Shown here in pieces: positions 947 through 64,000 of a stretch of DNA of 64,000 nt. Location of the stretch: NCBI GenBank assembly GCA_963663765.2, contig CAXXUA010000004.1, forward strand, positions 960,001 through 1,024,000, read 5' to 3'. Made by a program: the position numbers and the translations under genes. Source of the DNA: Candidatus Poribacteria bacterium (GTDB taxonomy: Bacteria; Poribacteria; WGA-4E; WGA-3G). A model generated the notes under the pieces. That model saw only the letters and a list, made by a program, of their open reading frames with translations. It was not told where the DNA came from and searched no databases. The stretch's first letter is position 1; the number at the start of each line of letters is the position of its first letter.

Positions 947-3900
947 TTATTTCATGGATTCTTGTAAATTTGATTTCCCATTTCTAAACCATTTCTCATC
1001 AGTTTTCTTCAACTTTTCAAGGTCATCAGGATTCTTAATATCTATTATGTGTGGGGTAATAATAAAGACTATTTCTGTATCTTGGATTTCTGTTTCTGTG
1101 CTTTTGAATAGTCTACCGAGTAATGGTATATCACCAAGTATCGGAACTTTGTTTTCGACCTCTTTCTGTTTTTTTCGAATGATACCACCAACGATGATTT
1201 GTTGTCCATCTTCTACGTCAATATATACACTCAATGAGTTGTCATCCGTAATCGGTGCATTAAAATCGGTAAACTCAATGAAGTTACTAGCACTGATACT
1301 CGTAATATCCAAACCGATAGTACGCTTGCCATCTTCACTAATTTGCGACTTTGCTATAAAGGGTGTAAGTTGTATATTGATACCAACAGGTGGGTCAATA
1401 AAATCATAGTTAAACAATGGTTGTGTAGCAGTATCACCAAGAATGCTGTTTGTATCAACACTTTGCAGGTATGGAATGCGCCGACCACTGCTCCATGTTG
1501 CAGGTCGACTGTCACGCGTCATAATAGTTGGTGTTGAAAGCGTCCTGACCTTATTCTCACGCATGAGCGTATGAAGCAACAACATATATTCTCGGGTCAC
1601 TAAACTATAGTTGAAGCCAGAAATTTCTTGCACAAGACCAAGTTCCGCATTCGCATCACCAATAAGTGGATTCGTTGGACTTAGTTCTATCCCTCCAAGT
1701 TTACGTTCATTCAGAGTCGCTTCTATCCCCAGTTTTGTCGCTTCATCAAGTGTCACTTCAAGAATCTTTATATCAATCCGAACTTGTCCACGCACAAAAT
1801 CCAACTTTTTGATCAATGCTTTTACTTGTTCCATATACCGACGACGGGTCGTTACAACCAAAGAATTGGTATCTGGATCCGCAAAAATTGTAACCTTACC
1901 GAACAACGAATTTATATCTACCGGTTCATCACCAGCGAAAACACTACTAATAAACCGTTCAAAACCGCCACCGCCACCGCCACCTTCTTGCTGTGCATCT
2001 TGCCATACTTGTGCAAGCACTTGTGAAATGGCATCTGCAGTTGCATATTCAAGCCGAATTGTCTCGGTGATCTCTCGCTGCTCATCTGGAGTCGGCACAT
2101 CAATCTGTTTAATAAATTCCTCGATCATATCAAAGTTGCGTTTAGTACCTGTTGACACGATCACTGCATTCAGATTCGCAAAAGGTTCAGCCGCAATATT
2201 CCCTGCTAAAGACCCCTGAGTCTGTGATGTAGAACCTCTACTCCGATCCCACCAATCATCATTCCAACCGCGACGACTACTACTGCTGCTGCTGCTTGCG
2301 TTCCCACCGAAATGTGAATTCAGAAGATTCGCAACATTTTCGGCATCAGCATATTTAAGGTAGATTATTTTTGTTCCCCATTCCTGTTCAGGCATGCTAA
2401 CATCAAGCTTCTTGATCAACTCATCAATCATAGGAAAATTCTGGGAAGCCGTTGAGATTAACAAAGCATTCAGACGAATATCGTACACAATATGTACATC
2501 ACCTTGAACTCCGAAACCGCCACCTGCTGACGCTTCACGGTTACTCTGTTCCCACCAGGGCCTATCACGGTCCGCTCCAGCACTACCACCCTCAAAAAGG
2601 TCCTGTAAATTAGCAGAAAGTGCCTCTGCATTCGCAAACTTCAACAGGTACATCTTGATCTCTTCCTGAGTCTCCGCCTGATCCAGTTCATCGATTATTT
2701 TTTCAATAATCGTAAAATTGCGTGGATCTGATGAAATGACAATAATATTGAGACGATCATTACGAGAGATGTTGACTAGTCCAACAATACCTTGAAAAAT
2801 GTCCTCTGTTATTCCCCGCTCGCGACGCTCTCTAATCAATCTCAGAATATCCTCTCTATCAAAACTCCTACTACCATTTTGGATATTTTCACCAGTGATT
2901 ATCTCTTCAAGCGTCGTTGCAACATCCTCCGCAGACGCAAATTTTAGTCGATACGTCCTTATCTCTGTCTGACTCGTCGGACCAGAATCGAGATGACTAA
3001 CAATCTCTTTTAGGATAATCAGGTTGTCTTCAGTCGCTTTGATGATGAGTGTGTTTGAGTTCTCATCGGCATATACCTTAACCGTACCTTCAATCAGTTC
3101 AACACCTAATCCCTGTTCAATCGCTTCCCTAATCTGTTCAGCATCAATACCTATTAAACCTTCCTGTGTTTTCTTCTCACCATCTTCTTCTTGAAAAACT
3201 TCGGAAAGTGTATCCTCTAATGAAGATGCTTCCGCAAACTTTAATGGAATAATTGCGATTTGTAATGGAAACTGTTCACCTGCATCAGCAAATTGTAGAA
3301 TTGATACGATTCTTCTCACATTTGACGAAATATCAGTGATTACAAGTGCGTTAGTCATCGCATCGGCAAATATGTTGGCTTGACTGTTCAACAAAGGTCT
3401 TAGCATATTCGCTTGTTCAGACGCATCCGTATTTTCTAACTGGATGATATACGTCCGAATCTCATCCGTCATTTCTACCTGTTCCGGCACCGCTTGGATA
3501 ATATTCACCGGAACGTTCATCACCGTAGCTTTTTCAAACGTAGTCACAAGGAGGGTACTATCAATTTTAACAAAGGTTAGGTTATACTGTGCAAGCACTG
3601 TCTTGATTTTTTCAATGACTTCATCAAGTGTTACGTTATTCAGGTTAATCAGAGAAAACCGCTTACCCGATATATCACTTTCACTCGCAATAATCGTTAG
3701 GTCAGTTTCTCGTGACAACCATTCAAACAAGTTTTTCAACTCTTGGCTTGTAAAGTTGAAGTTAAATCTTATGGGCCTGCCAGTTTCTTCATCCGTTTCT
3801 GCAACTTCCATCGTTCCTCCATCACCACGTTGCGCATACAAATCGCTTGGTGACACAGTCAGCAAACAGATGCTGAACAAGATAAATAAGATTAAACTCA

Positions 3901-13044: not shown

Positions 13045-14919
13045 CTACTCAGCTTCATCAAACTCATGTGCATCTTCTTGTGTCAGACGAAGTACCTCAT
13101 CAACCGTTGTTTGTCCAGCAGTGACCTTTTGCCAACCATCTTCACGTAGACTCTTCATCCCCATTTTAATTGCAAGCTTACGAAGTTCAGATGTAGATGT
13201 TTGTTGAAGAGACATATTACGTATTTCTTCCGACATAAATATCACTTCAAAGATACCGATTCGTCCTCGGTAGCCTCTTCCACGGCATTCCTTACAACCC
13301 CCCTCTTTCGCACGTGGTATCTCAAGATCCTCATCTACATGCACACCATTGTTCCTAAAGATTACTGCAATTTCATCAGCACTGGGACGATACATTTCAC
13401 GGCAAGATTTGCAAACACGTCTCGCTAAACGTTGCGCAATAATACCTTCAACCGTTGACGCAACCAAATAAGGTTCAACCTTCATATCAATCAAACGCGT
13501 GATAGCACCCGGCGCATCATTGGTGTGAAGCGTACTGAACACAAGGTGACCTGTCAACGACGTATGTATTGCCATCTCCGCTGTTTCATAGTCACGAATT
13601 TCACCAACCAATACCTTGTCAGGGTCCTGACGAAGGATATGCCGCAAACCTTCCGCAAATGAAAACTCAATATCAGGATTGACCTGAATCTGGTTGATCC
13701 CCTCTAACTCATATTCAACGGGGTCTTCAAGCGTTATTATCTTCACTTCAGGAGTATTGATCTCTTTCAAGCATGCATAGAGTGATGTCGTTTTACCACT
13801 ACCAGTCGGACCTGTGGCAAGTATAATGCCGTGCGGTTTATGAATCATGCGTTCGAACAGTGTATAATTCTCATTGGTAAGTCCCAATTCGGCTAATCCA
13901 AATTCAATTGATTGTCTGTCAAGGATACGAAGCACTACACTTTCACTATGCTGCGTTGCAACTGTCGGAACAGTTGAAACACGAAGGTCAATCTGACGAT
14001 CTCCCAAACTTCCAATCTCTTTGTTGATTTTACCATCTTGAGGACGACGACGCTCAGCAACATCCATGCCTGCCATGATCTTAATACGTGATGTAATTGC
14101 TGACTGCAAATACGCAGGCGGTTGCGGTTGGTCTTCTAACACGCCATCAACACGAAAACGAATCTTCAACTCACCCGGATACGGCTCAATGTGAATATCA
14201 CTCGCACCCGCACGCACCGCATCAATAATCATCTGGTCAACAGCATTCATCACCGTCGGATCCTGACTCAGATCCTTTTCGTCTATACCAAAGTCAACAA
14301 GTTGACCACGTTCAAATGTCGCAGCCGCACCGACCGGTCCCTTGATACCTCCACTCAAAAGCGAGGCAGCATCCTTACCATAGCAACGGATAATCGCTTC
14401 AGAAATTTCATCTTCATCTGCAATGGTCGTCTTTATATCACATTCTGTCAAAAACTCTATTTCGTCTATTAACATTACATCCTGAACATCCGCCATCGCT
14501 ATCGTAAGAACTTTACCCACAAGACGTAACGGTACAATCTTATTGCGATTTGCAAAACTTGGTGGTATTTTTTCAAGCGCGTTCTCTTCAGGTGATACCT
14601 CATCTAACCGAATGATCGGTGAACCCGTATCACGTCCTTTTTTCGCAAGTTCAAGCACTCGCTCAGATACATACTCAGTTATGATTGCTTCTTCCGAATC
14701 TCCCGCTTTCTCAATCTCATTCAAAATTTGTCTATACTTCTGAGACTCAGACTCTGGCGATTCCTCCGTCTCAATATCAGAATACACAGGCTTATTTACC
14801 CACCCTTCAAGTATCTTCTCATGTATTTCTTGATAGGCCTGCTCCGATATCAAATTCCCTTCTTTTAATACTTCAACAAGTGATTTTTGGGTAGATGTAC
14901 TACTAATCATAATAATCAA
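13045..14919 (-). CDS. gspE: T2SS/T4P assembly ATPase GspE/PilB
   Basis: ASDIHIEP; Walker A GPTGSGKT; TLEDPVE; LRQDPD...GEIRD; His box TGHLVFSTLH; CxxC...CxxC Zn site. Confidence 0.95.
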   Translation of the reverse strand: MIIMISSTSTQKSLVEVLKEGNLISEQAYQEIHEKILEGWVNKPVYSDIETEESPESESQKYRQILNEIEKAGDSEEAIITEYVSERVLELAKKGRDTGSPIIRLDEVSPEENALEKIPPSFANRNKIVPLRLVGKVLTIAMADVQDVMLIDEIEFLTECDIKTTIADEDEISEAIIRCYGKDAASLLSGGIKGPVGAAATFERGQLVDFGIDEKDLSQDPTVMNAVDQMIIDAVRAGASDIHIEPYPGELKIRFRVDGVLEDQPQPPAYLQSAITSRIKIMAGMDVAERRRPQDGKINKEIGSLGDRQIDLRVSTVPTVATQHSESVVLRILDRQSIEFGLAELGLTNENYTLFERMIHKPHGIILATGPTGSGKTTSLYACLKEINTPEVKIITLEDPVEYELEGINQIQVNPDIEFSFAEGLRHILRQDPDKVLVGEIRDYETAEMAIHTSLTGHLVFSTLHTNDAPGAITRLIDMKVEPYLVASTVEGIIAQRLARRVCKSCREMYRPSADEIAVIFRNNGVHVDEDLEIPRAKEGGCKECRGRGYRGRIGIFEVIFMSEEIRNMSLQQTSTSELRKLAIKMGMKSLREDGWQKVTAGQTTVDEVLRLTQEDAHEFDEAE

Positions 14920-17264: not shown

Positions 17265-17568
17265 GGTAGGCGTGCTTTGTAAGCGCGCCCCCCAACTGCA
17301 GGCGTGCTTTGTAAGCGCGCCCCCCAACTGCACTCCCCTGCAGGCGTGCTTTGTAAGCGCGCCCCCCAACTGCAGGCGTGCTTTGTAAGCGCGCCCCCAA
17401 CTGCAGGCGTGCTTTGTAAGCGCGCCCCCCAACTGCAGGCGTGCTTTGTAAGCGCGCCCCCCAAAGGTAGGCGTGCTTTGTAAGCGCGCCCCCCAACTGC
17501 AGGCGTGCTTTGTAAGCGCGCCATTGCCAATCTTGTGTTTATCGGTGCACTTACAAAGCACGCCTACC
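17265..17568. repeat. Tandem array of 8 GYAG-type REP hairpins plus one inverted copy (BIME/REPIN-like)
   Basis: Unit G(T/C)AGGCGTGCTTTGTAAGCGCGCC + CCCCAACT linker, period about 32 bp; inverted copy at 17545-17568. Confidence 0.9.
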
Positions 17569-48212: not shown

Positions 48213-48673
48213 TATTCAGTTTTCCTAATTTTTGGATTTTTCTAAAAAGAACCCCGCGGTAGGAGCGACCCGGGGAATGCCTAAATGGCATTCATACCGT
48301 TGATTTCTTGATTTGCCGGTCGCGATTTTCTCACAAAACAAATAAAATGCATAAAACTGAAAAACCCTAAATTGAAAACAAAACATTTGACCAGAGTTAT
48401 TCAGTTTTCCTAATTTTTGGATGTTTCCAAAAAGAACCCCCCGGTAGAAGCGACCTCCCGGTCGCGATTTTCTCACAAAACAAATAAAATGCATAAAACT
48501 GAAAAACCCTAAATTGAAAACAAAACATTTGACCAAGGTTATTCAGTTATCCCAATTTCTGGATGTTCCAAAAAGAACCCCCGGTAGGAGCGACCTCCCG
48601 GTCGCGATTTTCTCACAAAACAAATAAAATGCATAAAACTGAAAAACCCTAAATTGAAAACAAAACATTTGAC
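48213..48673. repeat. Three tandem copies of a 142-bp unit, each containing a REP
   Basis: Units start TATTCAG at 48213, 48398 and 48540; the first is 43 bp longer because of a micro-insertion. Confidence 0.92.
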
Positions 48674-51860: not shown

Positions 51861-52317
51861 CAGGACTTACGCAAAAACGGTAGGCGGGGAATGACTAAAT
51901 GGCATTCATACCGTTGATTTGGTGCTTTGTAAGCGCGCACCCGATGGTAGGCGTGCTTTGTAAGCGCGCCCCCGACGGTAGGCGTGCTTTGTAAGCGCGC
52001 ACCCGATGGTAGGCGTGCTTTGTAAGCACGGTATGCACATCAAGTCCCAATAGCGCGCTTACAAAGCACGCTTACCATTGCCTATGACATCTACCACAAA
52101 TTCTATTGACAGATGCCGAAGATTGCTATAAGATAAACTCATAATGAACTCATAACGAGTAACATCTAATCATTGTCACCTGCTTCGGAATACTGAAGAT
52201 TTAGTTACCTTCTCTGCGCCTACTCCCTACTGGTATTTGGCAGATGATTTAGCAAATGGGGGAGGATCAGTTTCCGTGAGTGGAACCCGTATTGATGATG
52301 ATAGTGCGTAAGTCCTG
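51861..52317. mobile_element. MITE with CAGGACTTACGCA TIRs (copy B) carrying a REP array
   Basis: CAGGACTTACGCA ... TGCGTAAGTCCTG; four tandem GGTAGGCGTGCTTTGTAAGCGCGC units plus an inverted copy (52053-52076). Confidence 0.8.
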
Positions 52318-52627: not shown

Positions 52628-53184
52628 ATGAAAAGCGAAAAAACAGATAAATCCCAAGAACTCCCCCATTCCATCAGTGACGCAGCTTGGAAAAGCCATT
52701 CTCGTTGATAGCACGATGGTGCGTGTCCACTCCTGCTCAGCCGGTGCACCTAAAAAAAGGAGGACAAGAAACACAAGCACTTGGTCGGAGCCGGGGCGGA
52801 TTTACCACGAAACTAAATCTATCTCTCAGCGATGAATGGATACCTCTCAGGTTTACTTTGACAGCAGGACAATGCCATGATATTACGCAAGCATCTGCGC
52901 TGATCAAAGGTTTTTCTTATCTGTATGTGATAGGAGATAAAGCCTACGATTCGGATGCTTTTATAGAGGAGATTGTCTCCAACAATGCGACGGCTGTGAT
53001 ACCGCCGCGCAAAAATCGCACTGAAATACGCACCTATGACAAAGAGTTATATAAACGGCGAAACAAAATAGAACGTTTCTTTCATCAATTAAAACAGTAT
53101 CGTCGTGTAGCAACACGTTATGATAAATACACAGACCGGTATCTCGGTATTGTATATTTCGCATCAATTCTCATAACAATATAA
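52628..53184 (+). pseudogene. Internally deleted IS5-family (IS427-like) transposase
   Basis: OrfA start MKSEK...ISDAAW joins directly to ILVDSTMVRVHSCSAGA; A7G slippery site; OrfB LGRSRGGFTTK, GDKAYDSD, YKRRNKIERFF, RRVATRYDK; right end ATGTAAACACTACCTAG. Confidence 0.8.
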
Positions 53185-53301
53185 GAATATGTAAACACTA
53201 CCTAGTCAAAAATAAGGCGTGGGACAGATATTGGATGCAACGCCCACAAGCAGCATGAAATTTATAACCAAAACTTTACACACCCGATTCTATTTTATTT
53301 C

Positions 53302-53330
53302 TTGACTCATTTGTAAAACTAAGGTATCGT
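53302..53330 (+). promoter_or_regulatory. Putative promoter of the cas operon
   Basis: TTGACT, 17-nt spacer, TATCGT, about 50 nt upstream of ATG 53382. Confidence 0.4.
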
Positions 53331-53381
53331 TAAATGACTTAATGATATTTGAAACATTTGATTTATGCAGAGGGACGCAGA

Positions 53382-55244
53382 ATGAACATCTATGTGGGCA
53401 ACGTGCCTTATACAGTAACAGAAAAGGATTTAGAAGAACTATTCAAAAAACATGGCGAAGTAACAAGTGCCAAAATCATAAATCATCTTAACGGCAGATC
53501 CAAGGGTTTCGGCTTCGTAGATATGCCAAACGAAGACCAAGCCAATCCCGCAATGAAAGCACTGGACGGTTCTGAGTTCAGGGGACGTCAATTAAGAGTT
53601 AACCCCGCCCGTCCACTCGGACAACAACGCCGACAATCGACACGGCAACCACAGCAACGACCACCCCGTCCACGTCAAACCGATCCGCCAAAATCCCAGA
53701 CAAAATCTACTGACAAGTTTCATAATCCCTATACCTTTGTGCCGACACCGTCACGCGACAATGTAATAGATCAAGACATTTTCGCCGCAGATTTTGATCC
53801 TCTGAAAAAAGGGCTGAACCACGCAACACTGCAAGATAATCTATGGACAGGACACATTCCGATAAAACTTACCGCCACGACACCATTAGTCCTACTCAAG
53901 AGTGAGGGTAGAGACGAAGACGCAACAGATGCACCCTACAGTGTACATTCACGTATTCCAGAGTCATCCCTGCGTGGCATGCTCCGCAGTGCTTATGAAA
54001 CTATTACGAATTCACGTTACAGCAGCTTCCGAAATAATGAAAAACTAGAATATCGTATGGGAAGAGAGAAACTCCCTTACCCTAAAAGTCCAGACGCGCT
54101 TCTCGATTCCTCGTTGAAACCTGCAAATAAACTTACTAAGTTATCCCCAGCAGACCGATTGTTCGGATGGACACCGCCACCCAACAGTAGTGATAAAAGC
54201 AGTGATAGCGGATACAAGAGTCGACTTCGAATCGTCTGTGATGATGTTGAACCCGCGGATCCCCTAAACCCTTTTCAGGATGACCCACTACCCCTTACTA
54301 TCTTAGGAACACCGAAACCTGAGCAAGGACGTTTTTATGTTGCCAAAGATGACAAAGGAACTCCGCAAGATGATGGTCTCAATAAAGAAGAGGCTGGATA
54401 TAGTAGTGGTAAAGGTTTGCGTGGGCGTAAACATTTCTGGCATCACAAAAATTTAGACAAAGACTATTGGGACCAAACAGGTGATGATAGCACTCGTGAA
54501 TATATACGCGCGAACAGAGAAAAAGACTCTCAAAATCGTAGCATCAATGCTTGGATCAAACCCGACACTACATTTCATGCATCTATATATGTCCAGAACT
54601 TACAGCAGGCAGAAATCGGTGCACTTCTATGGCTTTTAACACTCCCAGACGAATACCATTTCAGACTTGGATACGGAAAACCTTTAGGATTTGGCAGTGT
54701 GAAAATTAAGATTGACAATGACGACTGCCTACCACTTGGCACGTGTTCCGACTGGAAAGCATATTACTCACAACTGGAGGCATCACCTCCTGCTACAATG
54801 GATAAAGCAAAACGAGATGAATGTATCAATAAATTCAAGGATAGTATGGTGTCGGCATATTCACCAAAGCAAGAGAACGATGCAGAAGATGACAGCGACA
54901 TCAAAAAGACCTTATCCAACCTTTCTATGGCAGATCAACTCAAAAGCACACTGGAACAAACATCTGAAGGCAAAGCGGTGCTTGACGAAACGCAGTTTGA
55001 TAAACTCCGTTTTGTTGAGGGGTTCCTACAGGTTCTGAAAGGTCCGGATACGGGCTATCCAATCCATTATCCGCGTCGGAATCGTGAACCTGATGAAAAA
55101 GGTAATAACTATGAGTGGTTTATGGATAATGAGAACGGTAGAAATCGTTATGAAGATGGCGAAAAGCTTGCATTACCAGATGTATCTGACGATGAAGGTT
55201 TACCTTATATTCCATGCAAGCCAAAGCCAAGAAGAAGAAATTGA
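53382..55244 (+). CDS. RRM domain fused to a type III-D TIGR03986-like Cas7 (RAMP) protein
   Basis: RNP2 IYVGNV and RNP1 KGFGFVDM; Q/R/P linker; FHNPYTFVP; IPESSLRGMLRSAYE; SPADRLFG; LRGRKHFWH; RLGYGKPLGFGSV. Confidence 0.88.
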   Translation: MNIYVGNVPYTVTEKDLEELFKKHGEVTSAKIINHLNGRSKGFGFVDMPNEDQANPAMKALDGSEFRGRQLRVNPARPLGQQRRQSTRQPQQRPPRPRQTDPPKSQTKSTDKFHNPYTFVPTPSRDNVIDQDIFAADFDPLKKGLNHATLQDNLWTGHIPIKLTATTPLVLLKSEGRDEDATDAPYSVHSRIPESSLRGMLRSAYETITNSRYSSFRNNEKLEYRMGREKLPYPKSPDALLDSSLKPANKLTKLSPADRLFGWTPPPNSSDKSSDSGYKSRLRIVCDDVEPADPLNPFQDDPLPLTILGTPKPEQGRFYVAKDDKGTPQDDGLNKEEAGYSSGKGLRGRKHFWHHKNLDKDYWDQTGDDSTREYIRANREKDSQNRSINAWIKPDTTFHASIYVQNLQQAEIGALLWLLTLPDEYHFRLGYGKPLGFGSVKIKIDNDDCLPLGTCSDWKAYYSQLEASPPATMDKAKRDECINKFKDSMVSAYSPKQENDAEDDSDIKKTLSNLSMADQLKSTLEQTSEGKAVLDETQFDKLRFVEGFLQVLKGPDTGYPIHYPRRNREPDEKGNNYEWFMDNENGRNRYEDGEKLALPDVSDDEGLPYIPCKPKPRRRN

Positions 55245-55281: not shown

Positions 55282-56385
55282 GTGGCAACGCAACTTATCA
55301 TGACTGTCGGCACCAATGCATTACCTATCTGGGTCGCTTGGTATCATCTGAAGGGTAAACTGAAACAACCTGTAAAAGTCCAATTTATCTATACAAATGA
55401 CACGGAACCACAAAGAGACTCATTGCGCAGGTTCTGTGATAACGCACAATTCGGAACAGACATAAAAACGTCGCCAGGGGACCCATCCACCGTCCGTGGA
55501 GATATCAGGAAGCAAATATTGAATTGTTTAGATCAAAAAACGACACATCTTCATGTGCATTACACAAGCGGTACCAAGGTTATGGGGGTTGAGACAGTCT
55601 CAGCTATTGAAGAAAGAATAGCAAACAAAGCTTGCTTAAATTTAGAAACCACTTATTTAGATCCACGCGGTGACAAGGGACCGCGCCTCCTTAGTAGAAC
55701 AAACGTTTATCAAGAAGATGCTCGGATGGGTGTTAAACCAACACTTGATCGCATAGCAAATCTAAACGGATTTACTCCCGCACCTTTTACCCACGAATAT
55801 TGGAACAGAGAAGATAGCAGATGGATTAGAGATGAAAAACTAGCTCCTGCTGAACTTGATCGTGATCAAGAGGCAGATGGAAATAATGTTATAGATAGCA
55901 TGAGGAGAGGAGTGTGGGGCGCTATGGATCCAACACACTTTGAATATGCGGCTTATGTCGCACTTAACCAAGCGCTTGAAGCTATAAAAGCAGCTAATTC
56001 AGAGCGATCCAACTACAGGATCTACCATAATGTGTTTGTCCGAAGAACTAGTGCGGATCAACGGGATAGGATCTTTGAACTGGATGTTGTCGCGGTATTA
56101 GGATATCAAATCCTTGTTGTTTCATGCACACTTGAAACAGGACCTGCGGCGATTAAGGAAAAAGGAATGGAAGTCATCCTACGTTCAAGGCAGCTTGGCG
56201 GTGATGAGGCACAAGCCATCGTTCTCTGCAAAGGCTATTCTGAAATTACAGAACGCGTTGAGAAAGAATTGTACGATGAAATCGGAAGTGCAGGTCGACC
56301 TTTACGGATATGGGGAACAAACAAGTGGATAAAGCTACAAAACGAATTCAAGCAATACTTACGAAATGACCTCCATTGGCACTAA
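55282..56385 (+). CDS. CARF + restriction-endonuclease-like effector (Card1/Can2, DUF1887-like)
   Basis: CARF motifs IMTVGTNALP and HYTSGTKVM; nuclease motif FELDVVAVLGYQILVVSCT; RQLGG. Confidence 0.8.
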   Translation: MATQLIMTVGTNALPIWVAWYHLKGKLKQPVKVQFIYTNDTEPQRDSLRRFCDNAQFGTDIKTSPGDPSTVRGDIRKQILNCLDQKTTHLHVHYTSGTKVMGVETVSAIEERIANKACLNLETTYLDPRGDKGPRLLSRTNVYQEDARMGVKPTLDRIANLNGFTPAPFTHEYWNREDSRWIRDEKLAPAELDRDQEADGNNVIDSMRRGVWGAMDPTHFEYAAYVALNQALEAIKAANSERSNYRIYHNVFVRRTSADQRDRIFELDVVAVLGYQILVVSCTLETGPAAIKEKGMEVILRSRQLGGDEAQAIVLCKGYSEITERVEKELYDEIGSAGRPLRIWGTNKWIKLQNEFKQYLRNDLHWH

Positions 56386-56404
56386 CAGAAAGGCAACAAT
56401 ATCA

Positions 56405-57985
56405 ATGTCAGTAAAATGTATCACACTCCTTGGCACTGTCAGTGTCCAACAATATATCTTTCAGAGCAACAGGTTGAAGGAAATCATCGGCGCATCGTAT
56501 TTGGCAAAACACTGGTTTGATGACGGATTGATTCATGTAATTCAGCAGTCACGACACTCTTTAGATAGAGACGTATGGGACGCATACAAACAGAACCCAT
56601 CCATCACACAATCTGATGTGGAGGAAAACACCGAATCGGATGTCCAGATTATCTACATCGGCGGCGGTAATGCTGCTCTACTCTGCAAGGACAAAGACAC
56701 CGCTGCAGACGTCGTTCAAAAATGGAGTTATGCAATACTCAATAAAGCGCCCGGGCTCCGAGTCGCTGTTGGATTTGGTGAGGTAAACAACTCGTTATAT
56801 AAGGCATACGATGAAGCACGGAAACAACTAAACAAGTGTGAGGAAGCACTCCCTTACGGCGCAGAATTGGGAAGGCTACCTATCATTCGCTCCTGTTCAA
56901 CAACTGGTTTACCAGCAAGTATAAACGCCAGAGAGGAAAACAATCGAGTAATTCGGATATCTAAGGAAGCAGCAAGTAAAAGAGAACAGGTCGGCACAAC
57001 AAACAATCCAGGGAAAGCACGGCAGACTATTACGAAGGAGTTCAAGTCCGTTCTTAAAGAGAACCAACATTTCGCTTCAGATTTTGATGCCGAATTAGGC
57101 GGCGGTGATGGGCATTCCTATATGGCTGTCGTTCACGCAGATGGAAACGGGATGGGTGACCTCCTACAGGCAGCAGTGAAGGGTGCGCCTGAAGATCAAT
57201 TCCTCCATTTCATCAGAAGGTTTTCCGCATCTGTCTCAATGTTGTCTAAAAACGCTTTTGAGAGAACACTCCAACACTTCCAAAATAAGTTAAAGTTGCC
57301 ATTGAAAGGAATCAAAGAAAAGGATAACGTTTTTCCGCTCCGTCCAATCGTCTATGGTGGTGATGATTTGACCTTTGTTTGTGATGGAAGGGTTGGACTG
57401 CACCTAACGCAACACTACCTACAAGAATTCACAAAAGATCCAATAAAAGTCGGGGATGGAGTCAAACACATTGATGCATGTGCAGGTGTCGCTATTGTGC
57501 ATACAAAGTTCCCGATCGCACAAGCCTACAGTTTCGCAGACGAACTCTGTGCAAATGCAAAATCAGAACGTCGTAAGAAGGGCAATCAGAACGGGAGTTG
57601 GATGGATTTTCAGATAGTCCAAGCAGGTGTAACGGGTTCTGTCAACACTATCAGAAACACACAGTATCGCACCTTGACAGGGGCGCAACTTCATCAAAGA
57701 CCCTATCAAGTGCCAGAAAAGTGGACAGTTGTTGTTGAGATCTTGCGCGAGTTCCAATCTGATAAATGGCCGCGGAGCCGTGCGAAAAGTCTCATGCACG
57801 CCCTCACAAAGGGTTCAGATGAAACAGAACGTTTTGTCAAAGCAGCAAATTGGAGAGGTATTGAATTACCATCTGCTGAGGAACGACAGACTGGATGGTC
57901 AGGTGGTATAGAGGAAGAAAAAACAACACCATATTTTGATCCACTTGAGGTACTGGATTACTATCTAAAAGAACTCCTAAATTAA
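56405..57985 (+). CDS. cas10: Cas10 (HD-less, type III-D) with an intact GGDD cyclase motif
   Basis: VQQYIFQSNRLKEIIGAS; YIGGGNA; AVVHADGNGMG; RPIVYGGDDLTF; CAGVAIVH; MDFQIV. Confidence 0.92.
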   Translation: MSVKCITLLGTVSVQQYIFQSNRLKEIIGASYLAKHWFDDGLIHVIQQSRHSLDRDVWDAYKQNPSITQSDVEENTESDVQIIYIGGGNAALLCKDKDTAADVVQKWSYAILNKAPGLRVAVGFGEVNNSLYKAYDEARKQLNKCEEALPYGAELGRLPIIRSCSTTGLPASINAREENNRVIRISKEAASKREQVGTTNNPGKARQTITKEFKSVLKENQHFASDFDAELGGGDGHSYMAVVHADGNGMGDLLQAAVKGAPEDQFLHFIRRFSASVSMLSKNAFERTLQHFQNKLKLPLKGIKEKDNVFPLRPIVYGGDDLTFVCDGRVGLHLTQHYLQEFTKDPIKVGDGVKHIDACAGVAIVHTKFPIAQAYSFADELCANAKSERRKKGNQNGSWMDFQIVQAGVTGSVNTIRNTQYRTLTGAQLHQRPYQVPEKWTVVVEILREFQSDKWPRSRAKSLMHALTKGSDETERFVKAANWRGIELPSAEERQTGWSGGIEEEKTTPYFDPLEVLDYYLKELLN

Positions 57986-58060: not shown

Positions 58061-60454
58061 ATGATCAAATACGTATTGGAAATAAAACTTATCTCACCAC
58101 TAACATCTGCCGCAGGTGAAGGACGAGTCGGCTTAGTTGACCGAGATATTGCTTTTGACAAATTAGGACTACCAATTCTCCCCGGTAGACGACTCAAAGG
58201 ACTGTGGCGCGACGCATATCGCGATGTTGTGGATGCATGGCATCAGTGTGGAAACGACACTACGCCAGTTGAACAGGTTTTCGGGGAAATAGGACAGAGA
58301 CCTTATCACGGAGACGCATGCATTCATATCGCAAATGCTGAATTAAAGCATATTTTGTCTTTGAAGGAATGGTTAGCATACTTACAACATCCCAAGATTC
58401 GGAAACTCCATCCAGATGATGTCGTGCAACACTATGCAACTGTGCGTGCACAAACAGCAATTGAAAGGCTCACGGGGGCTGCAAAAGAAAACACGCTACG
58501 TCTAACACGAACTTTAAAACAAGATTTAGTCTTCTGGGCACCCGTCAACTTTGCAGATATAACGCCTGACGACCCATTGCTACAAGCATTAGCACTCGCA
58601 GCCGCTGCACTCAATTATATGGGAACAGCACGTACAAGAGGACTTGGAAAAGTCAATTGCCGGTTTATTGAGATTAAACCAAACTCCGAAGAAAAGGATC
58701 TCAAGCCACAGTTAAACACAAATGTCCTTCCATCCATTAAAAGCACTGTTTTAGCGAAATCTACCGTGAACCCCGTAACACCAACAACACATACAGGCAA
58801 TACATCCTGCAAAACACCCACTCACATATTACGATATCGTCTGAAGTTGACATCGGCAACCGTTATACCAACATCAGAGGGTGATCCGAATACTGTCGTT
58901 AGCCGTCATGACATCCCAGGAAGTCATCTATGGGGAATTGCTGCATGGTCTTATCTCAATCAACCAAATCAATCCGCTGCAGATCCTACCTTTCGCAAGA
59001 CTTTTCTCAATGGAGGTTTACGTTTCTTAAATGCATATCCAGAAGCAATTGATAACCAGCAGCGTATGATCCCAATACCACATTCCATCCGCAAATCCAA
59101 AAAATCCGATAATACACTCTATGACTTGGTTGAACAGCCACCAAAGGACGAACCCATAAGAAGGTTAGGTTCGGTCTATGCAAGAATGGGCGATGATGGT
59201 TTAGAGACACAATCGGTGAAGACAGAACGTAATTATCATCATGCGCGTGCGGCGAATGACCGAAGCAAAGGACGCGCACTCGGTGCGGAAGTCACAGATG
59301 GAGGAACACTCTTTACATACAACGCTATCCAACCTGAGCAGACTTTTCAGGGCACAGTTTTGGGGTCAGAAGAGGACTTGGCGCAATTGAAATCTTGGCT
59401 ACAGAGTCCAAGAACAGTCCGGATCGGTAGGTCTCGCAGCGCGCAATACGGCGAGGCGGAATTTGAATGGATAGATGATAACCCACTGTCCTATGAAGAT
59501 CTTATAGAATGGAGCGGATTCACTGTGGCACAACCCGGAGAAGCACAACCCGACACCCTTGAAAAACGCTTAATTATTACAACATTATCACCTTTATTAG
59601 CAGTTAACGAAAACGGACATCCGACTGCAGTCTTTCCCATACAGGAATTAGCCAATGCTTTAGGAATACAGGATAATGGCACTCCGAAACTCTTGAAAAG
59701 TTATACCAGAACTGAAGTTAACAGTGGATACAATACACATCTACGGTTACCGCGTCAGCAGTCTCAAGTAATCGCTGCGGGAAGTGTCTTTAAATTTGAA
59801 TTAGATGAAAAAATAACGGATGCACAATTGATGGAATTGGAGCGAAACGGATTAGGACTCCGTAAAGCAGAAGGCTTTGGACGTATCGCTATAAATCGGC
59901 TACATTTAGGCGGTGAAGAAAAGCAACTGGATGACCCGAACAACGTTAATACGCCTGATAAACCTGAATTAAACATGCCATCTGACCTTTCGCACATTCT
60001 AAAACAGATCGTGATGACATATTGCAGAACTGAAATGCAAAACAATGCAAGGGAGATTACAACCAAATTACCAAAGCAAAATATACCGAGTAACGCTTTG
60101 TTAGGACGACTAAAGTTATTCTTCCAACACGGTACCATAGAAGATAGTTTAGAACAACTGCGAAAGCCAGCAAAGGAACAATTAACGAGCTATCAGATTG
60201 ACATGCGTGAGTGTAATTTGTCTGAATTACCTAATGAACAGACACTATTTGGCATATTTAAGAATGCAGATACTCAACCAAACAAGTTTACGAAGAATAT
60301 GATTGAAACCAAAGTTAACGAACTGGCAGGCGACTTTGATGAAGATACACGCAACGAGATAATTCAAACAATGGTAAATGAACAAAGCACCAAATTATGC
60401 AAAGAATTTCTTGACTACCTGACTACAGCACTGCGCCGAAAATCAAGAGGTTAA
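58061..60454 (+). CDS. csx10: Cas7-Cas5(Csx10)-Cas11-like fusion
   Basis: N-terminal RAMP (DKLGLPILPGRRLKG...GTARTRGLG); central Csx10 (IPGSHLWG, IGRSRSAQYG, AAGSVF, GLGLRKAEGFG); helical C-terminus (PSNALLGRL). Confidence 0.82.
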   Translation: MIKYVLEIKLISPLTSAAGEGRVGLVDRDIAFDKLGLPILPGRRLKGLWRDAYRDVVDAWHQCGNDTTPVEQVFGEIGQRPYHGDACIHIANAELKHILSLKEWLAYLQHPKIRKLHPDDVVQHYATVRAQTAIERLTGAAKENTLRLTRTLKQDLVFWAPVNFADITPDDPLLQALALAAAALNYMGTARTRGLGKVNCRFIEIKPNSEEKDLKPQLNTNVLPSIKSTVLAKSTVNPVTPTTHTGNTSCKTPTHILRYRLKLTSATVIPTSEGDPNTVVSRHDIPGSHLWGIAAWSYLNQPNQSAADPTFRKTFLNGGLRFLNAYPEAIDNQQRMIPIPHSIRKSKKSDNTLYDLVEQPPKDEPIRRLGSVYARMGDDGLETQSVKTERNYHHARAANDRSKGRALGAEVTDGGTLFTYNAIQPEQTFQGTVLGSEEDLAQLKSWLQSPRTVRIGRSRSAQYGEAEFEWIDDNPLSYEDLIEWSGFTVAQPGEAQPDTLEKRLIITTLSPLLAVNENGHPTAVFPIQELANALGIQDNGTPKLLKSYTRTEVNSGYNTHLRLPRQQSQVIAAGSVFKFELDEKITDAQLMELERNGLGLRKAEGFGRIAINRLHLGGEEKQLDDPNNVNTPDKPELNMPSDLSHILKQIVMTYCRTEMQNNAREITTKLPKQNIPSNALLGRLKLFFQHGTIEDSLEQLRKPAKEQLTSYQIDMRECNLSELPNEQTLFGIFKNADTQPNKFTKNMIETKVNELAGDFDEDTRNEIIQTMVNEQSTKLCKEFLDYLTTALRRKSRG

Positions 60455-60465
60455 TACCGAATACC

Positions 60466-61983
60466 ATGACAAACACAACACACCAAATACCCAAAGATGC
60501 CGTAAAATCTAGGATCTATGCAAAAGGCATCTGGAAACTTGAATCTGTCGCACACTTCGGCGGCGAAGACACAGGCATTGCAGACATGTGTCTCCTACAA
60601 GATAAAGACGGCAAACCCTTTATACCAGGCGCATCTATCGCAGGAGCAGGACGGAGTCTCCTTGCTCATCAGTGCCTAACGTGGTCAGAATATATAAACG
60701 GTATATCAAAGGAAACACCAGAACTCAAACGTCTCTTCGGAGGTGCGGACGAGAAAGACACCATGAGCGCACTCATCTTTGCAGACGCAGTATGTGTCAC
60801 CAAAAAACCCGCAACAACCGTCCGTGATGGAGTCCGTATTGATACCGATTCTGGAACTGCGTTTGATAAGGCGAAGTTTGATGTTGAAGTCGTCGAACGT
60901 GGCACAGAATTCAATATAGAACTGGAATGTATTCTCCGTCAAGCAGACTCCGAACAGGAAGCAACTCTCAGAAGGCTGTTTGCAGCACTCCTCTATGCTT
61001 TTGAACAAGGCGACATCCGACTCGGTGCACGTACTCGAAGAGGTTACGGACAAGGCAAAGTTGAAACTTGGCAAACACGAGATCTACAGATGGACAACCC
61101 GCAGGATGTCATGTCATGGCTACATGACGATGTCTGGAAATATAAACAAGCACAAACCACATTAAAGCCACAACCGTTATCTGAAGATCAACGGAAATTC
61201 TTCCGTATAGAAGCTGACTTTGCACTCCGTACTTCGCTTCTTATCCGAAGTTCCTCTGGAGAACCAAAAGACCCAGACATGGTGCATCTGCACTCCAACG
61301 GAAAACCCGTCATCCCCGGCACATCCTTTTCGGGTGCATTCCGCCACCGAGCAGCCTTGATCGCAAAGATTCTGAATTGGACACACAAAGAGGGTGAAGA
61401 TGTTACCAGTGAGATGTTCGGTGCTGTTCATGACCATGATAAAAAAACAGACGACACGGAACAAACAGAACTATGGGCAAGTCGCGTGACAATAGAAGAA
61501 CAATTGGTGGAAAATGTGAAACCGATATGGCAAGACCGCGTCGCAATTGATCGCTTTACGGGTGGTAGCCTACAAAGTGCGTTGTTCAATCAGAAACCCG
61601 TATATCCTTGTCCCATCAAAGCAGAAACAGAAACCAACGTCAGACTGATACTCACAATAGAGGAACCGATGCATGCAGAAATCGGATTGTTGCTATTAAC
61701 CATGCGCGACTTCTGGCACGGCAATGCTACACTTGGCGGAGAGGCAAGCAACGGACGCGGCACACTACAAGGACTCAATGCTACATTGACATATAAGGAC
61801 ACAGACATATCATCCGATGCAAAACAATGGCAATTATCAAACAATGGCAAACACATGATAGTTGAAAGTGGCGATGCTGCATGCCTTCAATCCTATGTGG
61901 AAGCAGCCCAGAAATATGAAAACAATCCAGAAGCATCACGACGACCGGAAAACCAGAATCAGGAGGATACCGATGCCAAATAG
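60466..61983 (+). CDS. cas7: Tandem Cas7-Cas7 (double Csm3-like RAMP)
   Basis: Two RAMPs: PFIPGASIAG...RDGVRID...LGARTRRGYG and PVIPGTSFSG...RVAIDRFTGG...LGGEASNGRG. Confidence 0.88.
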   Translation: MTNTTHQIPKDAVKSRIYAKGIWKLESVAHFGGEDTGIADMCLLQDKDGKPFIPGASIAGAGRSLLAHQCLTWSEYINGISKETPELKRLFGGADEKDTMSALIFADAVCVTKKPATTVRDGVRIDTDSGTAFDKAKFDVEVVERGTEFNIELECILRQADSEQEATLRRLFAALLYAFEQGDIRLGARTRRGYGQGKVETWQTRDLQMDNPQDVMSWLHDDVWKYKQAQTTLKPQPLSEDQRKFFRIEADFALRTSLLIRSSSGEPKDPDMVHLHSNGKPVIPGTSFSGAFRHRAALIAKILNWTHKEGEDVTSEMFGAVHDHDKKTDDTEQTELWASRVTIEEQLVENVKPIWQDRVAIDRFTGGSLQSALFNQKPVYPCPIKAETETNVRLILTIEEPMHAEIGLLLLTMRDFWHGNATLGGEASNGRGTLQGLNATLTYKDTDISSDAKQWQLSNNGKHMIVESGDAACLQSYVEAAQKYENNPEASRRPENQNQEDTDAK

Positions 61984-62536
61984 AACCCTAATAGAACAAC
62001 TCAATTCTACGTGGCTTTCTCAACAATTGGGTGATATTACCGCAAATGATACAGCATGGGTATTCCTTCAGGAACCAGCATTCATCGGTTTCGGAGTCGT
62101 TACAAAGAACGATACCTATTTCCCACCAAAAGTAAACCCTGATTGGACACTGACCAGCGATCTGCGTCTGTTCGGTGAAAAAGGGGAATGGCATGTCTGG
62201 CGGGATTGGGACGGTAAGCATTACGCACGCCTATGGACATTAAAAGAAATGACGGATGCAATCACCGAACACCATTTCCTCTGGGGAACGGAAAAAAAAG
62301 ATATAGATAACGGTCCTTGGACAAAACTCACAGAGGACCGAGGTACTGAAATATGGCTACCGTTGGCAAAAAAGTTGAAAGACACCGATATACCTTTACG
62401 TCTAAGACTCAAGCAGATAGTAACGTATGACCCGATAACGCACATAGCAGGCATTACCGACGCTGCTCTCATCGGACTCACCAAATCTGATAAAAGTCTA
62501 TTGCAACCACCTGCCGATATGTCCGCTGGTTCGTAG
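61973..62536 (+). CDS. csx19: Type III-D protein Csx19
   Basis: LRLFGEKGEWHVWR; FLWGT; LTEDRG; AGGAGG RBS before ATG 61973; follows Cas7x2. Confidence 0.82.
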   Translation: MPNRTLIEQLNSTWLSQQLGDITANDTAWVFLQEPAFIGFGVVTKNDTYFPPKVNPDWTLTSDLRLFGEKGEWHVWRDWDGKHYARLWTLKEMTDAITEHHFLWGTEKKDIDNGPWTKLTEDRGTEIWLPLAKKLKDTDIPLRLRLKQIVTYDPITHIAGITDAALIGLTKSDKSLLQPPADMSAGS

Positions 62537-62538
62537 TT

Positions 62539-63516
62539 ATGCTCAAAAACTTCCGATTTGCCCGTTACCGACTCACCTACACCGTCCAAGAACCACTAAA
62601 GATGCCAACATACAAAGGCAGCATCTTCCGCGGACGCTTCGGATACCTGCTCCGCCACATCGCGTGTATCGGAGATGCGGGTGAATGCGAAAAAAAGTGC
62701 CAACACGCAGACCGATGCGTCTACTCCAAGTGCTTTGAAACACCTGTTCCTAAAGATAGTCCCATGTTGCGAGGACAACCCTTTGCACCACATCCCTTCA
62801 TCCTTCAGCCACCCTGCACATCTAAGAAGGAATATGTCCGAGACGATACCTTTACTTGTAATATCACGCTCATCGGAGAGGCGATTGACTTGTTGCCGTG
62901 GATTGTGCTGACTTTTCATGAGATGGGTAGACTGCGCATTGGACTTCAAGGGGCACGTGGACAGTGTCGACTGGACACAGTGGAAAGCCTATCCGCACAT
63001 AGCAATCCTCAACCTCAGACAATCTTCACCGCAGAGACCGAGATGCTAACAGATGATGGTATCATACTCAAACTTGACGATGTGATGCACAACACACCCG
63101 ACATCACAGATAAGATGGAATTAGAGTTTATCACCCTTACCAGCATCAAGGTAGATGGAAAATGGGCGAAGGAGTTGACATTTGAACACCTTATTCGTAA
63201 CCTACTCCGACGTATCCGATTTTTGAGCTATTTTCATTGTGGAGAGGATTTAGACGTGGATGCACACGCATTGATTGATGCTGCACGTGCTATTTCACAC
63301 GAATCCCGTTTCCGTTGGCTCAAGTCAAACCGTTATTCTTATCGTGCGGAGAGTTCTATTCCAATGGATGGGTTTATCGGGAAGGTACGTTATATAGGTG
63401 AATTAGGGCAGTTCTTGCCATTCATTTTTCTTGGTGAGTATATGCACATCGGACACCACACAGCGTTCGGATATGGGCAATATAGACTAATCTCACCTGA
63501 GACACCGATTTCGTAG
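62539..63516 (+). CDS. cas6: Cas6 pre-crRNA endoribonuclease
   Basis: YKGSIFRGRFG; Cys cluster; PHPFIL; C-terminal G-rich loop HIGHHTAFGYGQY. Confidence 0.9.
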   Translation: MLKNFRFARYRLTYTVQEPLKMPTYKGSIFRGRFGYLLRHIACIGDAGECEKKCQHADRCVYSKCFETPVPKDSPMLRGQPFAPHPFILQPPCTSKKEYVRDDTFTCNITLIGEAIDLLPWIVLTFHEMGRLRIGLQGARGQCRLDTVESLSAHSNPQPQTIFTAETEMLTDDGIILKLDDVMHNTPDITDKMELEFITLTSIKVDGKWAKELTFEHLIRNLLRRIRFLSYFHCGEDLDVDAHALIDAARAISHESRFRWLKSNRYSYRAESSIPMDGFIGKVRYIGELGQFLPFIFLGEYMHIGHHTAFGYGQYRLISPETPIS

Positions 63517-63920: not shown

Positions 63921-64000
63921 TTGCATGACTCGTGGATTAGTGAATATCGGCATTTATAGCTGCACGATTCACCGCACACTAAATTCCCTTCAAACGGGAA

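What the first reader, a model, noticed from the sequence alone, without database searches (positions are those of the whole stretch)
53382..55244. Canonical RRM RNA-binding domain fused to the TIGR03986-type Cas7 of a type III-D complex
Seen: the first ~80 aa from ATG 53382 form a complete bacterial RRM (RNP2 IYVGNV, RNP1 SKGFGFVDM, ending GRQLRVNPARP). A Q/R/P-rich linker joins it in frame to a RAMP beginning FHNPYTFVP. The segment between LRSAYE and PADRLFG is only about 50 aa. Knowledge: this Cas7 caps type III-D complexes and usually carries a large insertion, sometimes with cold-shock/OB domains; I do not recall RRM fusions as characterised. Inference: the insertion appears to be replaced by a tethered ssRNA-binding module. 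It could load or unfold target RNA, protect the crRNA 3' end, or autoregulate the operon, which this gene leads.
Basis: partly seen in the sequence, partly recalled or inferred. Interest (0 to 1): 0.8.

Follow-up and report, generated by a model that had tools for sequence, protein, structure and literature searches.

The report
RRM head on a CRISPR Cas7
A standard single-stranded-RNA-binding domain is truly fused, through a floppy linker, to the capping subunit of an RNA-targeting CRISPR complex, and relatives swap this head for a cold-shock domain, which suggests that the unexplained head of this subunit grabs RNA.

Summary
ORF 53382-55244 (620 aa) is one open frame. It has a canonical RRM (aa 1-78), a disordered Q/R/P-rich linker (aa 79-111) and a TIGR03986 Cas7. 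[quoted passage not shown] It leads a complete III-Dv operon.

The fusion is not an artefact. Contigs of runs from two studies bridge the junction, and 69 of the 120 nearest protein clusters carry the same RRM head.

Of the 69 RRM proteins, 55 have both RRM and insertion. The window copy belongs to a recurrent insertion-less form in which about 6 aa replace roughly 230-290 aa.

The new points are these:
- The N-terminal head is a swappable module: RRM, cold-shock domain, or an uncharacterised β-rich head that is the commonest across the wider family.
- Cores that are about 100% identical carry different heads, and the breakpoint lies exactly at the FHNPY motif.
- Fused RRMs resemble the host's own free RRM protein, up to 93% nt identity in one genome.

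Best reading (about 0.5): a tethered, non-specific ssRNA-binding head beside the crRNA 3' seed that captures or unfolds target RNA. It is a new variant of a known kind, and I found no description of it in the papers searched.

The parts
53382..55244 (+). [quoted passage not shown]
   Evidence: Open frame. Pfam RRM_1 and RAMPs. TIGR03986 at 247.5 bits. PDB 8s9t_E at E 2.1e-75.
53382..53615 (+). RRM head, aa 1-78 (RNP2 aa 3-8, RNP1 aa 41-48)
   Evidence: Pfam at E 1.2e-22. AF2 pLDDT 79-96 with βαββαβ topology. Foldseek hit to 7jly and other RRMs.
53616..53714 (+). Q/R/P-rich linker, aa 79-111; a stretch about this size has net charge +7
   Evidence: AF2 pLDDT below 50 for aa 80-117. Composition and charge. 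Relatives' linkers differ in length and sequence.
53715..55241 (+). Cas7 core, aa 112-620, beginning at the FHNPY motif; this is where heads are exchanged among relatives
   Evidence: Alignment to 8s9t_E from aa 98 onwards. Head/core breakpoint at FHNPY in 4 of 4 pairs examined.
54057..54080 (+). Site of the missing insertion domain: aa 226-233, a connector of about 6 aa where relatives have 231-405 aa
   Evidence: P0002 aa 222-508 has no counterpart here. Insertion lengths across 120 proteins. Matches 8s9t_E 229-457.
55282..56385 (+). 367-aa protein, possibly a CARF-nuclease signalling effector (weak)
   Evidence: Pfam NERD E 0.002 and CARF_Card1 E 0.016, both below the cut-off. Conserved directly after the Cas7 gene in 6 of 6 related loci.
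56366..57985 (+). Short Cas10 (539 aa) with a GGDD motif; no HD domain detected
   Evidence: Pfam Cas10-Cmr2_palm2 at E 1.9e-13. NCBIfam Cmr2/Csm1 partial matches. GGDD seen in the translation.
58061..60454 (+). Cas7-Cas5 (Csx10) fusion with a C-terminal tail of about 185 aa where Synechocystis has Cas11
   Evidence: NCBIfam Csx10 for aa 256-613 and Cmr4/Csm3 for aa 11-199. Collinear with the Synechocystis Cas7-Cas5-Cas11 over aa 6-612. The tail was not matched.
60466..61983 (+). Double Cas7 (Cas7-2x), 505 aa
   Evidence: NCBIfam Csx7 at 112.8 bits in 4 stretches.
61862..62536 (+). Csx19; the true start is probably downstream of 61983
   Evidence: NCBIfam TIGR03984 at 64.5 bits (cut-off 35), matching from aa 51.
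62539..63516 (+). Cas6-like endoribonuclease
   Evidence: Pfam CRISPR_Cas6 at E 3.8e-17.
52687..53184 (+). IS5-family transposase fragment upstream; its multi-copy sequence ends near 53286
   Evidence: NCBIfam transpos_IS5_3 at 137.6 bits, covering model positions 110-257 of 258. Depth jump and loose ends at 53203 and 53286.

Best explanation
The gene encodes the capping Cas7 subunit of a type III-Dv CRISPR effector. This is the homologue of Synechocystis 'Cas7-insertion', here in a natural form without the insertion. Its N-terminal head is a canonical RRM on a disordered, basic linker of about 33 residues. [quoted passage not shown] I propose that the RRM is a flexibly tethered ssRNA binder without sequence preference. 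It would catch passing transcripts, hold or unfold the RNA next to the protospacer, and so speed seed pairing or prolong target residence. Shown here: the domain identity, the tether, conserved RNA-binding motifs, the operon, and the interchange with a cold-shock domain. Inferred: RNA binding by the head, its place near the seed in this complex, and its effect on targeting.
For: 1. Identity and position. The body matches 8s9t_E. In that complex the subunit caps the crRNA 3' end, the seed is there, and its own N-terminal 112 residues were flexible and unseen (passages of PMC11026444, and of bioRxiv 10.1101/2022.06.13.496011).
2. RNA-binding residues are kept. Strict RNP1 is present in 63 of 69 RRM heads and RNP2 in 68 of 69. 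In the alternative cold-shock heads an RNP1-like motif is present in 40 of 47 and an RNP2-like motif in 45 of 47.
3. Two unrelated ssRNA-binding folds occupy the same place. Of the 120 proteins, 69 have RRM, 47 have CSD and 4 have neither. Pfam confirms CSD in P0051, P0111 and P0067, and RRM in P0014, P0126 and P0127. A tree of the core needs at least 10 head changes. The pairs P0014/P0067, P0005/P0051, P0021/P0106 and P0023/P0082 have near-identical cores starting exactly at FHNPY but different heads and linkers. Exchange of analogous domains argues that generic ssRNA binding, not a specific protein contact, is what is selected.
4. The tether. pLDDT is below 50 for aa 80-117, and linkers vary in length and sequence.
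5. The heads come from housekeeping RNA binders. Fused heads are 78% identical at the median (maximum 93%) to this genome's free 95-aa RRM protein. In G170 the fused head and the free gene share 217 of 234 nt and 67 of 71 codons at identical residues.
6. A head is a family-wide feature. Among 150 representatives found with the core alone, at least 66 carry a different conserved head. That head folds as β1-β2-β3-helix-β4-β5 at pLDDT 94-98.
Against: No binding or activity was measured. The 2022 preprint made a Synechocystis mutant lacking the N-terminal 104 residues. Its sentence literally says these residues 'were necessary for cleavage', but the authors removed them from an engineered construct, so it may mean 'not necessary' (the supplementary figure could not be read). 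If the head is dispensable in vitro, its benefit may show only in cells or on structured RNA. The window's own RRM is among the most divergent, at 61% to the free RRM protein. A minority RRM subtype in relatives lacks the first RNP1 aromatic. The common head of the wider family has no detectable RNA-binding motif, and its similarity to CSD is weak (hhalign probability 26%). The AF2 model of the window protein's body is only moderate (mean pLDDT 65.7), and no complex was modelled.
Confidence: 0.5

Rival explanations
1. The head handles the guide rather than the target. It would bind the 3' part of pre-crRNA or mature crRNA, protecting it, setting its length or helping loading. In insertion-less forms such as this one it would substitute for the insertion domain that cradles the crRNA 3' end in Synechocystis.
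For: In 8s9t/8s9u the insertion domain holds the six 3' bases of the crRNA (passages of PMC11026444). The window protein lacks that domain but keeps an ssRNA binder on a tether at the same end.
Against: The head and the insertion vary independently: RRM-long 55, RRM-short 14, CSD-long 26, CSD-short 21. The head is therefore not a specific substitute for the insertion. The head in Synechocystis was not seen on the crRNA in the maps.
Confidence: 0.15
2. The head is regulatory or a protein-contact module. It could autoregulate the operon mRNA that this gene leads, or dock a host or accessory factor.
For: The gene is first in the operon in 7 of 7 loci (window plus 6). Free bacterial RRM proteins score on an NCBIfam model named 'RNA-binding regulator' (94.9 bits, cut-off 100).
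Against: Interchange with an unrelated fold, and retention of RNP motifs in both, fits generic RNA binding better than a specific contact or a specific operator. In Synechocystis and Nostoc the gene is last among the effector genes, not first, yet it also has a head. No conserved leader element was sought.
Confidence: 0.1
3. Head and insertion are exposed, fast-shuffling surface modules shaped mainly by conflict with phage inhibitors. The head would act as decoy or shield. Its RNA binding would be incidental.
For: Mosaic pattern. The core tree needs at least 10 head changes and at least 19 insertion gains or losses. Between P0014 and P0067 the insertion region diverges while the flanks are 30/30 identical per window. 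P0039 and P0066 are 100% identical before the insertion site and roughly 55-90% per 30-residue window after it.
Against: No inhibitor of III-Dv is known to me (recalled, not searched). Conserved RNP motifs show selection on RNA-binding residues. This reading is compatible with the best explanation rather than opposed to it.
Confidence: 0.1
4. The fusion is an assembly or annotation artefact: a free RRM gene wrongly joined to a Cas7 gene, or a missed stop.
For: A free RRM gene exists elsewhere in the genome, and an IS fragment lies just upstream.
Against: The frame is uninterrupted. Contigs of two studies bridge the junction with no differences. Of the 120 nearest clusters, 69 have the same architecture, and so do 9 of 13 core-bearing genomes of the phylum.
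Confidence: 0.01

Closest known systems
Cas7-insertion subunit of the Synechocystis sp. PCC 6803 type III-Dv effector (PDB 8s9t/8s9u chain E; pSYSA, TIGR03986 family)
   Same: Same family: phmmer E 2.1e-75 and Foldseek E 4.5e-20. Same partners: short Cas10, Cas7-Cas5(-Cas11), Cas7-2x, Csx19 and Cas6. Both have an N-terminal head of about 100 residues before the FHNPY motif.
   Different: The Synechocystis head is an uncharacterised domain that Pfam does not recognise. My RRM and CSD head profiles do not recognise it either. The window protein has a canonical RRM instead. The window protein lacks the insertion domain (8s9t_E 229-457) that holds the crRNA seed. The gene order is permuted: the Cas7 gene is first here and fifth there.
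Free-standing bacterial RRM proteins (about 95-115 aa; for example PDB 7jly, 'RNA binding protein PG1')
   Same: The head is a complete RRM_1 with RNP1 and RNP2. It is 51% identical to 7jly at rmsd 0.8 Å. It is 59-61% identical to the genome's own free RRM protein.
   Different: Here the RRM is covalently tethered to a CRISPR effector subunit and is not a separate small protein.
Cold-shock-domain-headed TIGR03986 proteins (for example P0051, P0067)
   Same: Same core (50-60% identity to the window protein), the same two length classes and the same head position.
   Different: An OB-type CSD stands in place of the RRM. The linkers are shorter and not basic (median 20 aa, net charge -2, against 32 aa and +2).
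Cas7.4 with insertion in type III-E Cas7-11 (gRAMP) and type III-D2 Cas7x3 (PDB 7zol, 7x7a, 9wxh)
   Same: The C-terminal half of the core matches these chains (E 3.7e-15 to 4.9e-20; Foldseek ranks 3-29).
   Different: Those are domains inside giant fusion proteins, so there is no free N-terminus for a head. A passage of PMC11026444 reports the insertion of III-E as dispensable.

Membership tests
TIGR03986 family type III CRISPR-associated RAMP (Cas7) | Score above NCBIfam's curated cut-off for the equivalog model | tested here: met
   247.5 bits against a cut-off of 161.35, in two stretches because the insertion part of the model is absent.
TIGR03986 family type III CRISPR-associated RAMP (Cas7) | Homology to a solved member, and the Cas7 fold | tested here: met
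   8s9t_E by phmmer at E 2.1e-75 over three stretches. Foldseek top hits are 8s9t_E and 8s9u_E.
'Cas7-insertion' as named for III-Dv | Large insertion domain between the first helix of the core and the ADRxFG segment | tested here: not met
   Only about 6 residues stand at the site where 83 of the 120 relatives have 231-405. It is the orthologous subunit but an insertion-less form.
RRM_1 (PF00076), RNA recognition motif | Full-length match above the gathering score, RNP1 and RNP2 motifs, and the βαββαβ fold | tested here: met
   80 bits (cut-off 20.7) over model positions 1-70 of 70. Motifs seen. Fold.
RRM_1 (PF00076), RNA recognition motif | Binds single-stranded RNA | not testable with these tools
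   Inferred only from the conserved RNP aromatics.
Type III-Dv (III-D variant) CRISPR-Cas system | Gene set: cas10, cas7-cas5-cas11 fusion, cas7-2x, csx19, TIGR03986 cas7, cas6, and an array | tested here: met
   All were found in the window. cas1 and a 56-repeat array lie 0.4-1.8 kb beyond the window's end. The Cas11 part of the fusion was not matched by sequence.
Type III-Dv (III-D variant) CRISPR-Cas system | Cas10 able to signal (GGDD palm motif) | tested here: met
   GGDD is present in the 539-aa Cas10, and there is a palm2 hit. No HD domain was detected. Activity was not tested.

The most novel reading that the evidence does not exclude
The top of the III-Dv effector is built from exchangeable cassettes. 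One is an N-terminal ssRNA-binding head, repeatedly recruited from the host's own housekeeping RNA chaperones (RRM protein or cold-shock protein) or from an older β-rich head. The other is an optional crRNA-seed-holding insertion. Recombination at two fixed joints, FHNPY and the insertion site, reshuffles them between otherwise identical effectors. This would tune how the complex finds structured or scarce target RNA, and perhaps help it evade phage inhibitors. The RRM/CSD swaps would then reveal that the unresolved N-terminal domain of the model Synechocystis subunit is an RNA-capture module.
Probability: 0.3. Interest if true: 0.75.

Novelty: new variant of a known kind. Interest (0 to 1): 0.6.

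Why it matters
The N-terminal domain of the III-Dv capping subunit is called uncharacterised and was invisible in the cryo-EM maps. Nature's replacement of it by two textbook ssRNA binders gives a direct, testable hypothesis for what that end of the complex does. The natural insertion-less forms, and the clean module boundaries at FHNPY and the insertion site, are ready-made designs for minimal or retargeted RNA-guided effectors. The near-identical cores with different heads are natural swap experiments. The copying of a housekeeping RRM gene into a defence gene (93% nt identity in one genome) is a clear case of host domain recruitment by an immune system.

Tried and rejected
Assembly artefact: rejected.

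'RRM replaces the insertion': rejected.

Intein-like or mobile insertion as the reason for the clean presence or absence: considered and dropped without a test. In Synechocystis the insertion is a folded domain that holds the crRNA, and P0115 shows a deletion with other borders (gap 41 instead of 56).

Composition of the RRM segment: no anomaly beyond a GC-richer linker.

The promoter and terminator scan found no more sites than in shuffles, so I draw nothing from it.

The search for related loci on genome contigs with the single protein returned 11 loci. Ten were free RRM genes and one was a distant Actinokineospora Cas7, so it did not help. The genome search was used instead.

The ESM Atlas gave no usable hit for the common head.

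hhalign of the common head against CSD heads: probability 26%, E 7e-4, 68 collinear columns. Against RRM heads there was nothing. This is a lead only. Foldseek on the whole P0202 model was dominated by the core, so the head's fold class rests on DSSP topology alone.

The 367-aa neighbour is not similar to the Synechocystis CARF protein at the equivalent place.

RNA run X6 holds one 151-nt contig over 53544-53694 with 2 differences. It may come from a relative or from DNA, so it is no evidence of expression.

No complex prediction was run, because I claim no protein-protein contact.

Literature searches: 'TIGR03986' (1 paper); 'Cas7-insertion'/'III-Dv' (23 papers); type III-D + cold shock domain/RNA recognition motif/Csx19; Cas7 + type III + RRM domain/cold-shock/N-terminal/fused; Poribacteria + CRISPR + type III. 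Passages were read in PMC3936711, PMC13294483, PMC11026444, PMC12669027 and bioRxiv 10.1101/2022.06.13.496011. None mentions an RRM or cold-shock head on this subunit. Subscription journals and supplements were not searchable, and supplementary Fig. 13 of the preprint bears on the Δ104 mutant.
Full report
**What is there**

The frame from ATG 53382 to the stop at 55244 is open and gives 620 residues.
- Pfam finds a full-length RRM_1 at aa 3-72 (E 1.2e-22) and RAMPs at aa 190-441.
- NCBIfam's TIGR03986 equivalog scores 247.5 bits against a cut-off of 161.35.
- AlphaFold2, given 120 aligned relatives, models aa 1-78 as β1α1β2β3α2β4 at pLDDT 79-96. Residues 80-117 fall below 50. The body is modelled moderately (mean 65.7, pTM 0.62).
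- Foldseek puts 8s9t_E and 8s9u_E first (E 4.5e-20 and 1.5e-19), followed by type III-E gRAMP chains. Further down it matches the head to RRMs such as 7jly (TM 0.88 on the target, rmsd 0.8 Å, 51% identity).

**Not an artefact**

Contigs of 6018 nt from runs X1 and X4, which belong to two studies, lie on 53231-54400 with no differences or gaps. A 371-nt contig of X5 spans 53481-53851. One of these runs may be the assembly's own source. Independent support comes from the same architecture in many other assemblies, described below.

**The system**

Downstream on the same strand lie:
- a 367-aa protein with weak CARF_Card1 and NERD hits;
- a 539-aa Cas10 with a palm2 hit and a GGDD motif but no detected HD domain;
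- a 797-aa Cas7-Csx10(Cas5) fusion;
- a 505-aa double Cas7;
- Csx19;
- a Cas6.

cas1 and an array of 56 repeats of 37 nt follow just beyond the window.

[quoted passage not shown] The 797-aa protein is collinear with the Synechocystis Cas7-Cas5-Cas11 over aa 6-612, but its tail was not matched. The order differs. Here the TIGR03986 gene and the CARF-like gene come first. The same order holds in 6 of 6 related loci that I fetched from the same phylum.

**The insertion**

By sequence the protein matches 8s9t_E in three stretches and skips 8s9t_E 229-457. The closest relative, P0002 (902 aa, 69-74% identical), equals the window protein plus about 287 residues between its aa 226 and 233.

I aligned the 120 proteins and counted residues at that site. 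In 37 proteins there are 0-7 residues and in 83 there are 231-405, with nothing in between. The window copy is therefore a member of a discrete insertion-less form. In Synechocystis the insertion cradles the six 3' bases of the crRNA that seed target pairing.

**The head is a module**

I classified the 120 proteins with phmmer, using the window's RRM and the head of P0051 as queries. The result was RRM 69 (55 long, 14 short), cold-shock domain 47 (26 long, 21 short) and neither 4. Of those four, two look N-terminally cut and two carry degenerate remnants. Pfam confirms CSD above its cut-off in P0051, P0111 and P0067, and RRM_1 in P0014, P0126 and P0127.

A FastTree of the core alone needs at least 10 changes of head type and at least 19 of insertion state. 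That tree used the columns of window aa 112-620, with heads and insertion excluded and all 120 rows kept. It carries local supports only, and recombination violates the tree model.

The direct evidence is in pairs:
- P0014 (RRM) and P0067 (CSD) are 30/30 identical per 30-column window from FHNPY onwards, except inside the insertion, while heads and linkers are unrelated.
- P0005/P0051, P0021/P0106 and P0023/P0082 behave alike.
- P0097/P0115 are nearly identical except for a deletion.
- P0039/P0066 are 100% identical up to the insertion site and roughly 55-90% per 30-residue window after it.

The gene is a mosaic with joints at FHNPY and at the insertion site.

**Where the RRM comes from**

The genome has one free RRM gene (G000:C6; 95 aa from MNIYVGN). 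Nearly all genomes of the family have one. The 69 fused heads are 78% identical to it at the median and 93% at most. The window's own head is an outlier at 61%.

In five genomes that hold both a fused head and a free gene (G101, G127, G170, G100, G088), the two are 64-74 of 78 residues identical. In four of the five they share lineage signatures. In G170 they share 217 of 234 nucleotides and 67 of 71 codons at identical residues. For comparison, free genes of different genera share about half their codons. At least one head is therefore a recent copy of, or conversion by, the host's housekeeping gene.

**Distribution**

In the phylum, the matches listed show the Cas7 core in 13 of 176 genomes; ten further matches were not listed. 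Heads are RRM in 9 of the 13, CSD in 3 and undetermined in 1.

I then searched 1.84 billion cluster representatives with the core only. This gave 4607 hits at E ≤ 0.001 and 694 at E ≤ 1e-30. The heads of the top 150 were as follows:
- My RRM and CSD head profiles matched 7 and 2 proteins respectively.
- 119 of the 150 matched my regex for the start of the core. Of these, 93 had a head of at least 30 residues and 26 had less.
- A jackhmmer search over the 93 longer heads found one conserved head of a different kind in 66 of them. Of the other 27, nine are the RRM and CSD heads and the rest are mostly basic low-complexity stretches or unclassified.
- The remaining 31 did not match my core-start regex. 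Several of them visibly carry the common head.

The common head is the one in Synechocystis and Nostoc. It is unknown to Pfam and was described as a small, uncharacterised, flexible domain that is missing from the maps.

AlphaFold2 of P0202, a short-form protein with this head, is confident (mean pLDDT 91.7). It models the head as β1-β2-β3-helix-β4-β5 at pLDDT 94-98, followed by a disordered linker. That order of elements is what I recall for OB-type barrels. I could not search the head alone. Its profile similarity to the CSD heads is weak (probability 26%).

**How it most likely works**

Shown here:
- a canonical ssRNA-binding domain on a flexible tether at the N-terminus of the subunit;
- conserved RNP motifs in both the RRM and the CSD versions;
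- repeated exchange between the two folds on identical cores.

From the solved homologue: this subunit caps the crRNA 3' end, and the exposed 3' bases are the seed.

Inferred: the head binds target RNA without sequence preference near the seed. This would raise the local concentration of target or melt local structure, as free RRM and cold-shock proteins are known to do (general knowledge, not tested here).

The rivals are listed with their odds: guide handling, regulation or protein contact, and a conflict-driven surface.

The only experimental hint is the Δ104 Synechocystis mutant. The preprint's sentence about it is ambiguous, and its supplementary figure could not be read.

**Comparison and novelty**

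The protein is a member of TIGR03986 and the orthologue of Cas7-insertion, but it fails the feature that gives the latter its name. The RRM head is common among its nearest relatives and is already tagged by automatic Pfam annotation. It is therefore not a unique oddity.

I found no paper that mentions an RRM or cold-shock head on this subunit, its modular exchange, or the insertion-less form. I rate it a new variant of a known kind, of moderate to good interest. It turns the unexplained N-terminal domain of a structurally solved effector into a testable RNA-capture hypothesis and offers natural swap variants for the test.

Noticed in passing
window 52687-53286: IS5-family transposase fragment (model positions 110-257 of 258). 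In three runs contig depth jumps and loose ends occur at 53203 and 53286, so a multi-copy element ends about 96 nt upstream of the operon's first ATG. It may supply or have displaced the promoter.
   Followed up: partly
window 17268-17522 and 51922-52027: Two tandem arrays of 31-32-nt units (7.7 and 3.4 copies) share a palindromic core. The units are contiguous, so these are not CRISPR arrays. Their nature is unknown.
   Followed up: no
window 48316-48673: Tandem repeat of a 142-nt AT-rich unit, 2.5 copies, 96% matches, in an intergenic stretch.
   Followed up: no
window 55282-56385: A 367-aa protein with sub-threshold CARF_Card1 and NERD hits always follows the Cas7 gene (6 of 6 related loci). 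It is a likely cOA-sensing nuclease of a family that the libraries do not name. In three relatives the tblastn match is split by about 280-460 nt, which suggests an extra inserted segment.
   Followed up: partly
window 63982-64000 and beyond (L016:1982-2093, 2413-3405, 3765 onwards): Two repeats in inverse orientation stand before cas1, followed by a 56-repeat array with a 37-nt repeat. The array and cas1 lie outside the window.
   Followed up: partly
P0038, P0095, P0120; genomes G021, G071, G134: A second RRM subtype occurs on the same Cas7. It has a longer β2-β3 loop and an RNP1 that lacks the first aromatic residue. It could bind RNA differently or not at all.
   Followed up: no
L051 and L056 (G170): The fused RRM head and the same genome's free RRM gene share 217 of 234 nt. 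This points to recent copying or gene conversion between a housekeeping gene and a cas gene.
   Followed up: partly
P0202 aa 1-75 (and Synechocystis L001:8662-9000): The common, uncharacterised head of the family is modelled with high confidence as β1-β2-β3-helix-β4-β5, an order of elements that I recall for OB-type barrels. Its profile similarity to cold-shock heads is weak.
   Followed up: partly
L048 (G100), 3071-3623 and 13399-14501: Fragments of cas6 (about 30 aa) and of the CARF-like gene (about 139 aa) lie upstream of the Cas7 gene. The cas7-2x match is interrupted by about 1.1 kb. These look like scars of rearrangement in a related locus.
   Followed up: no
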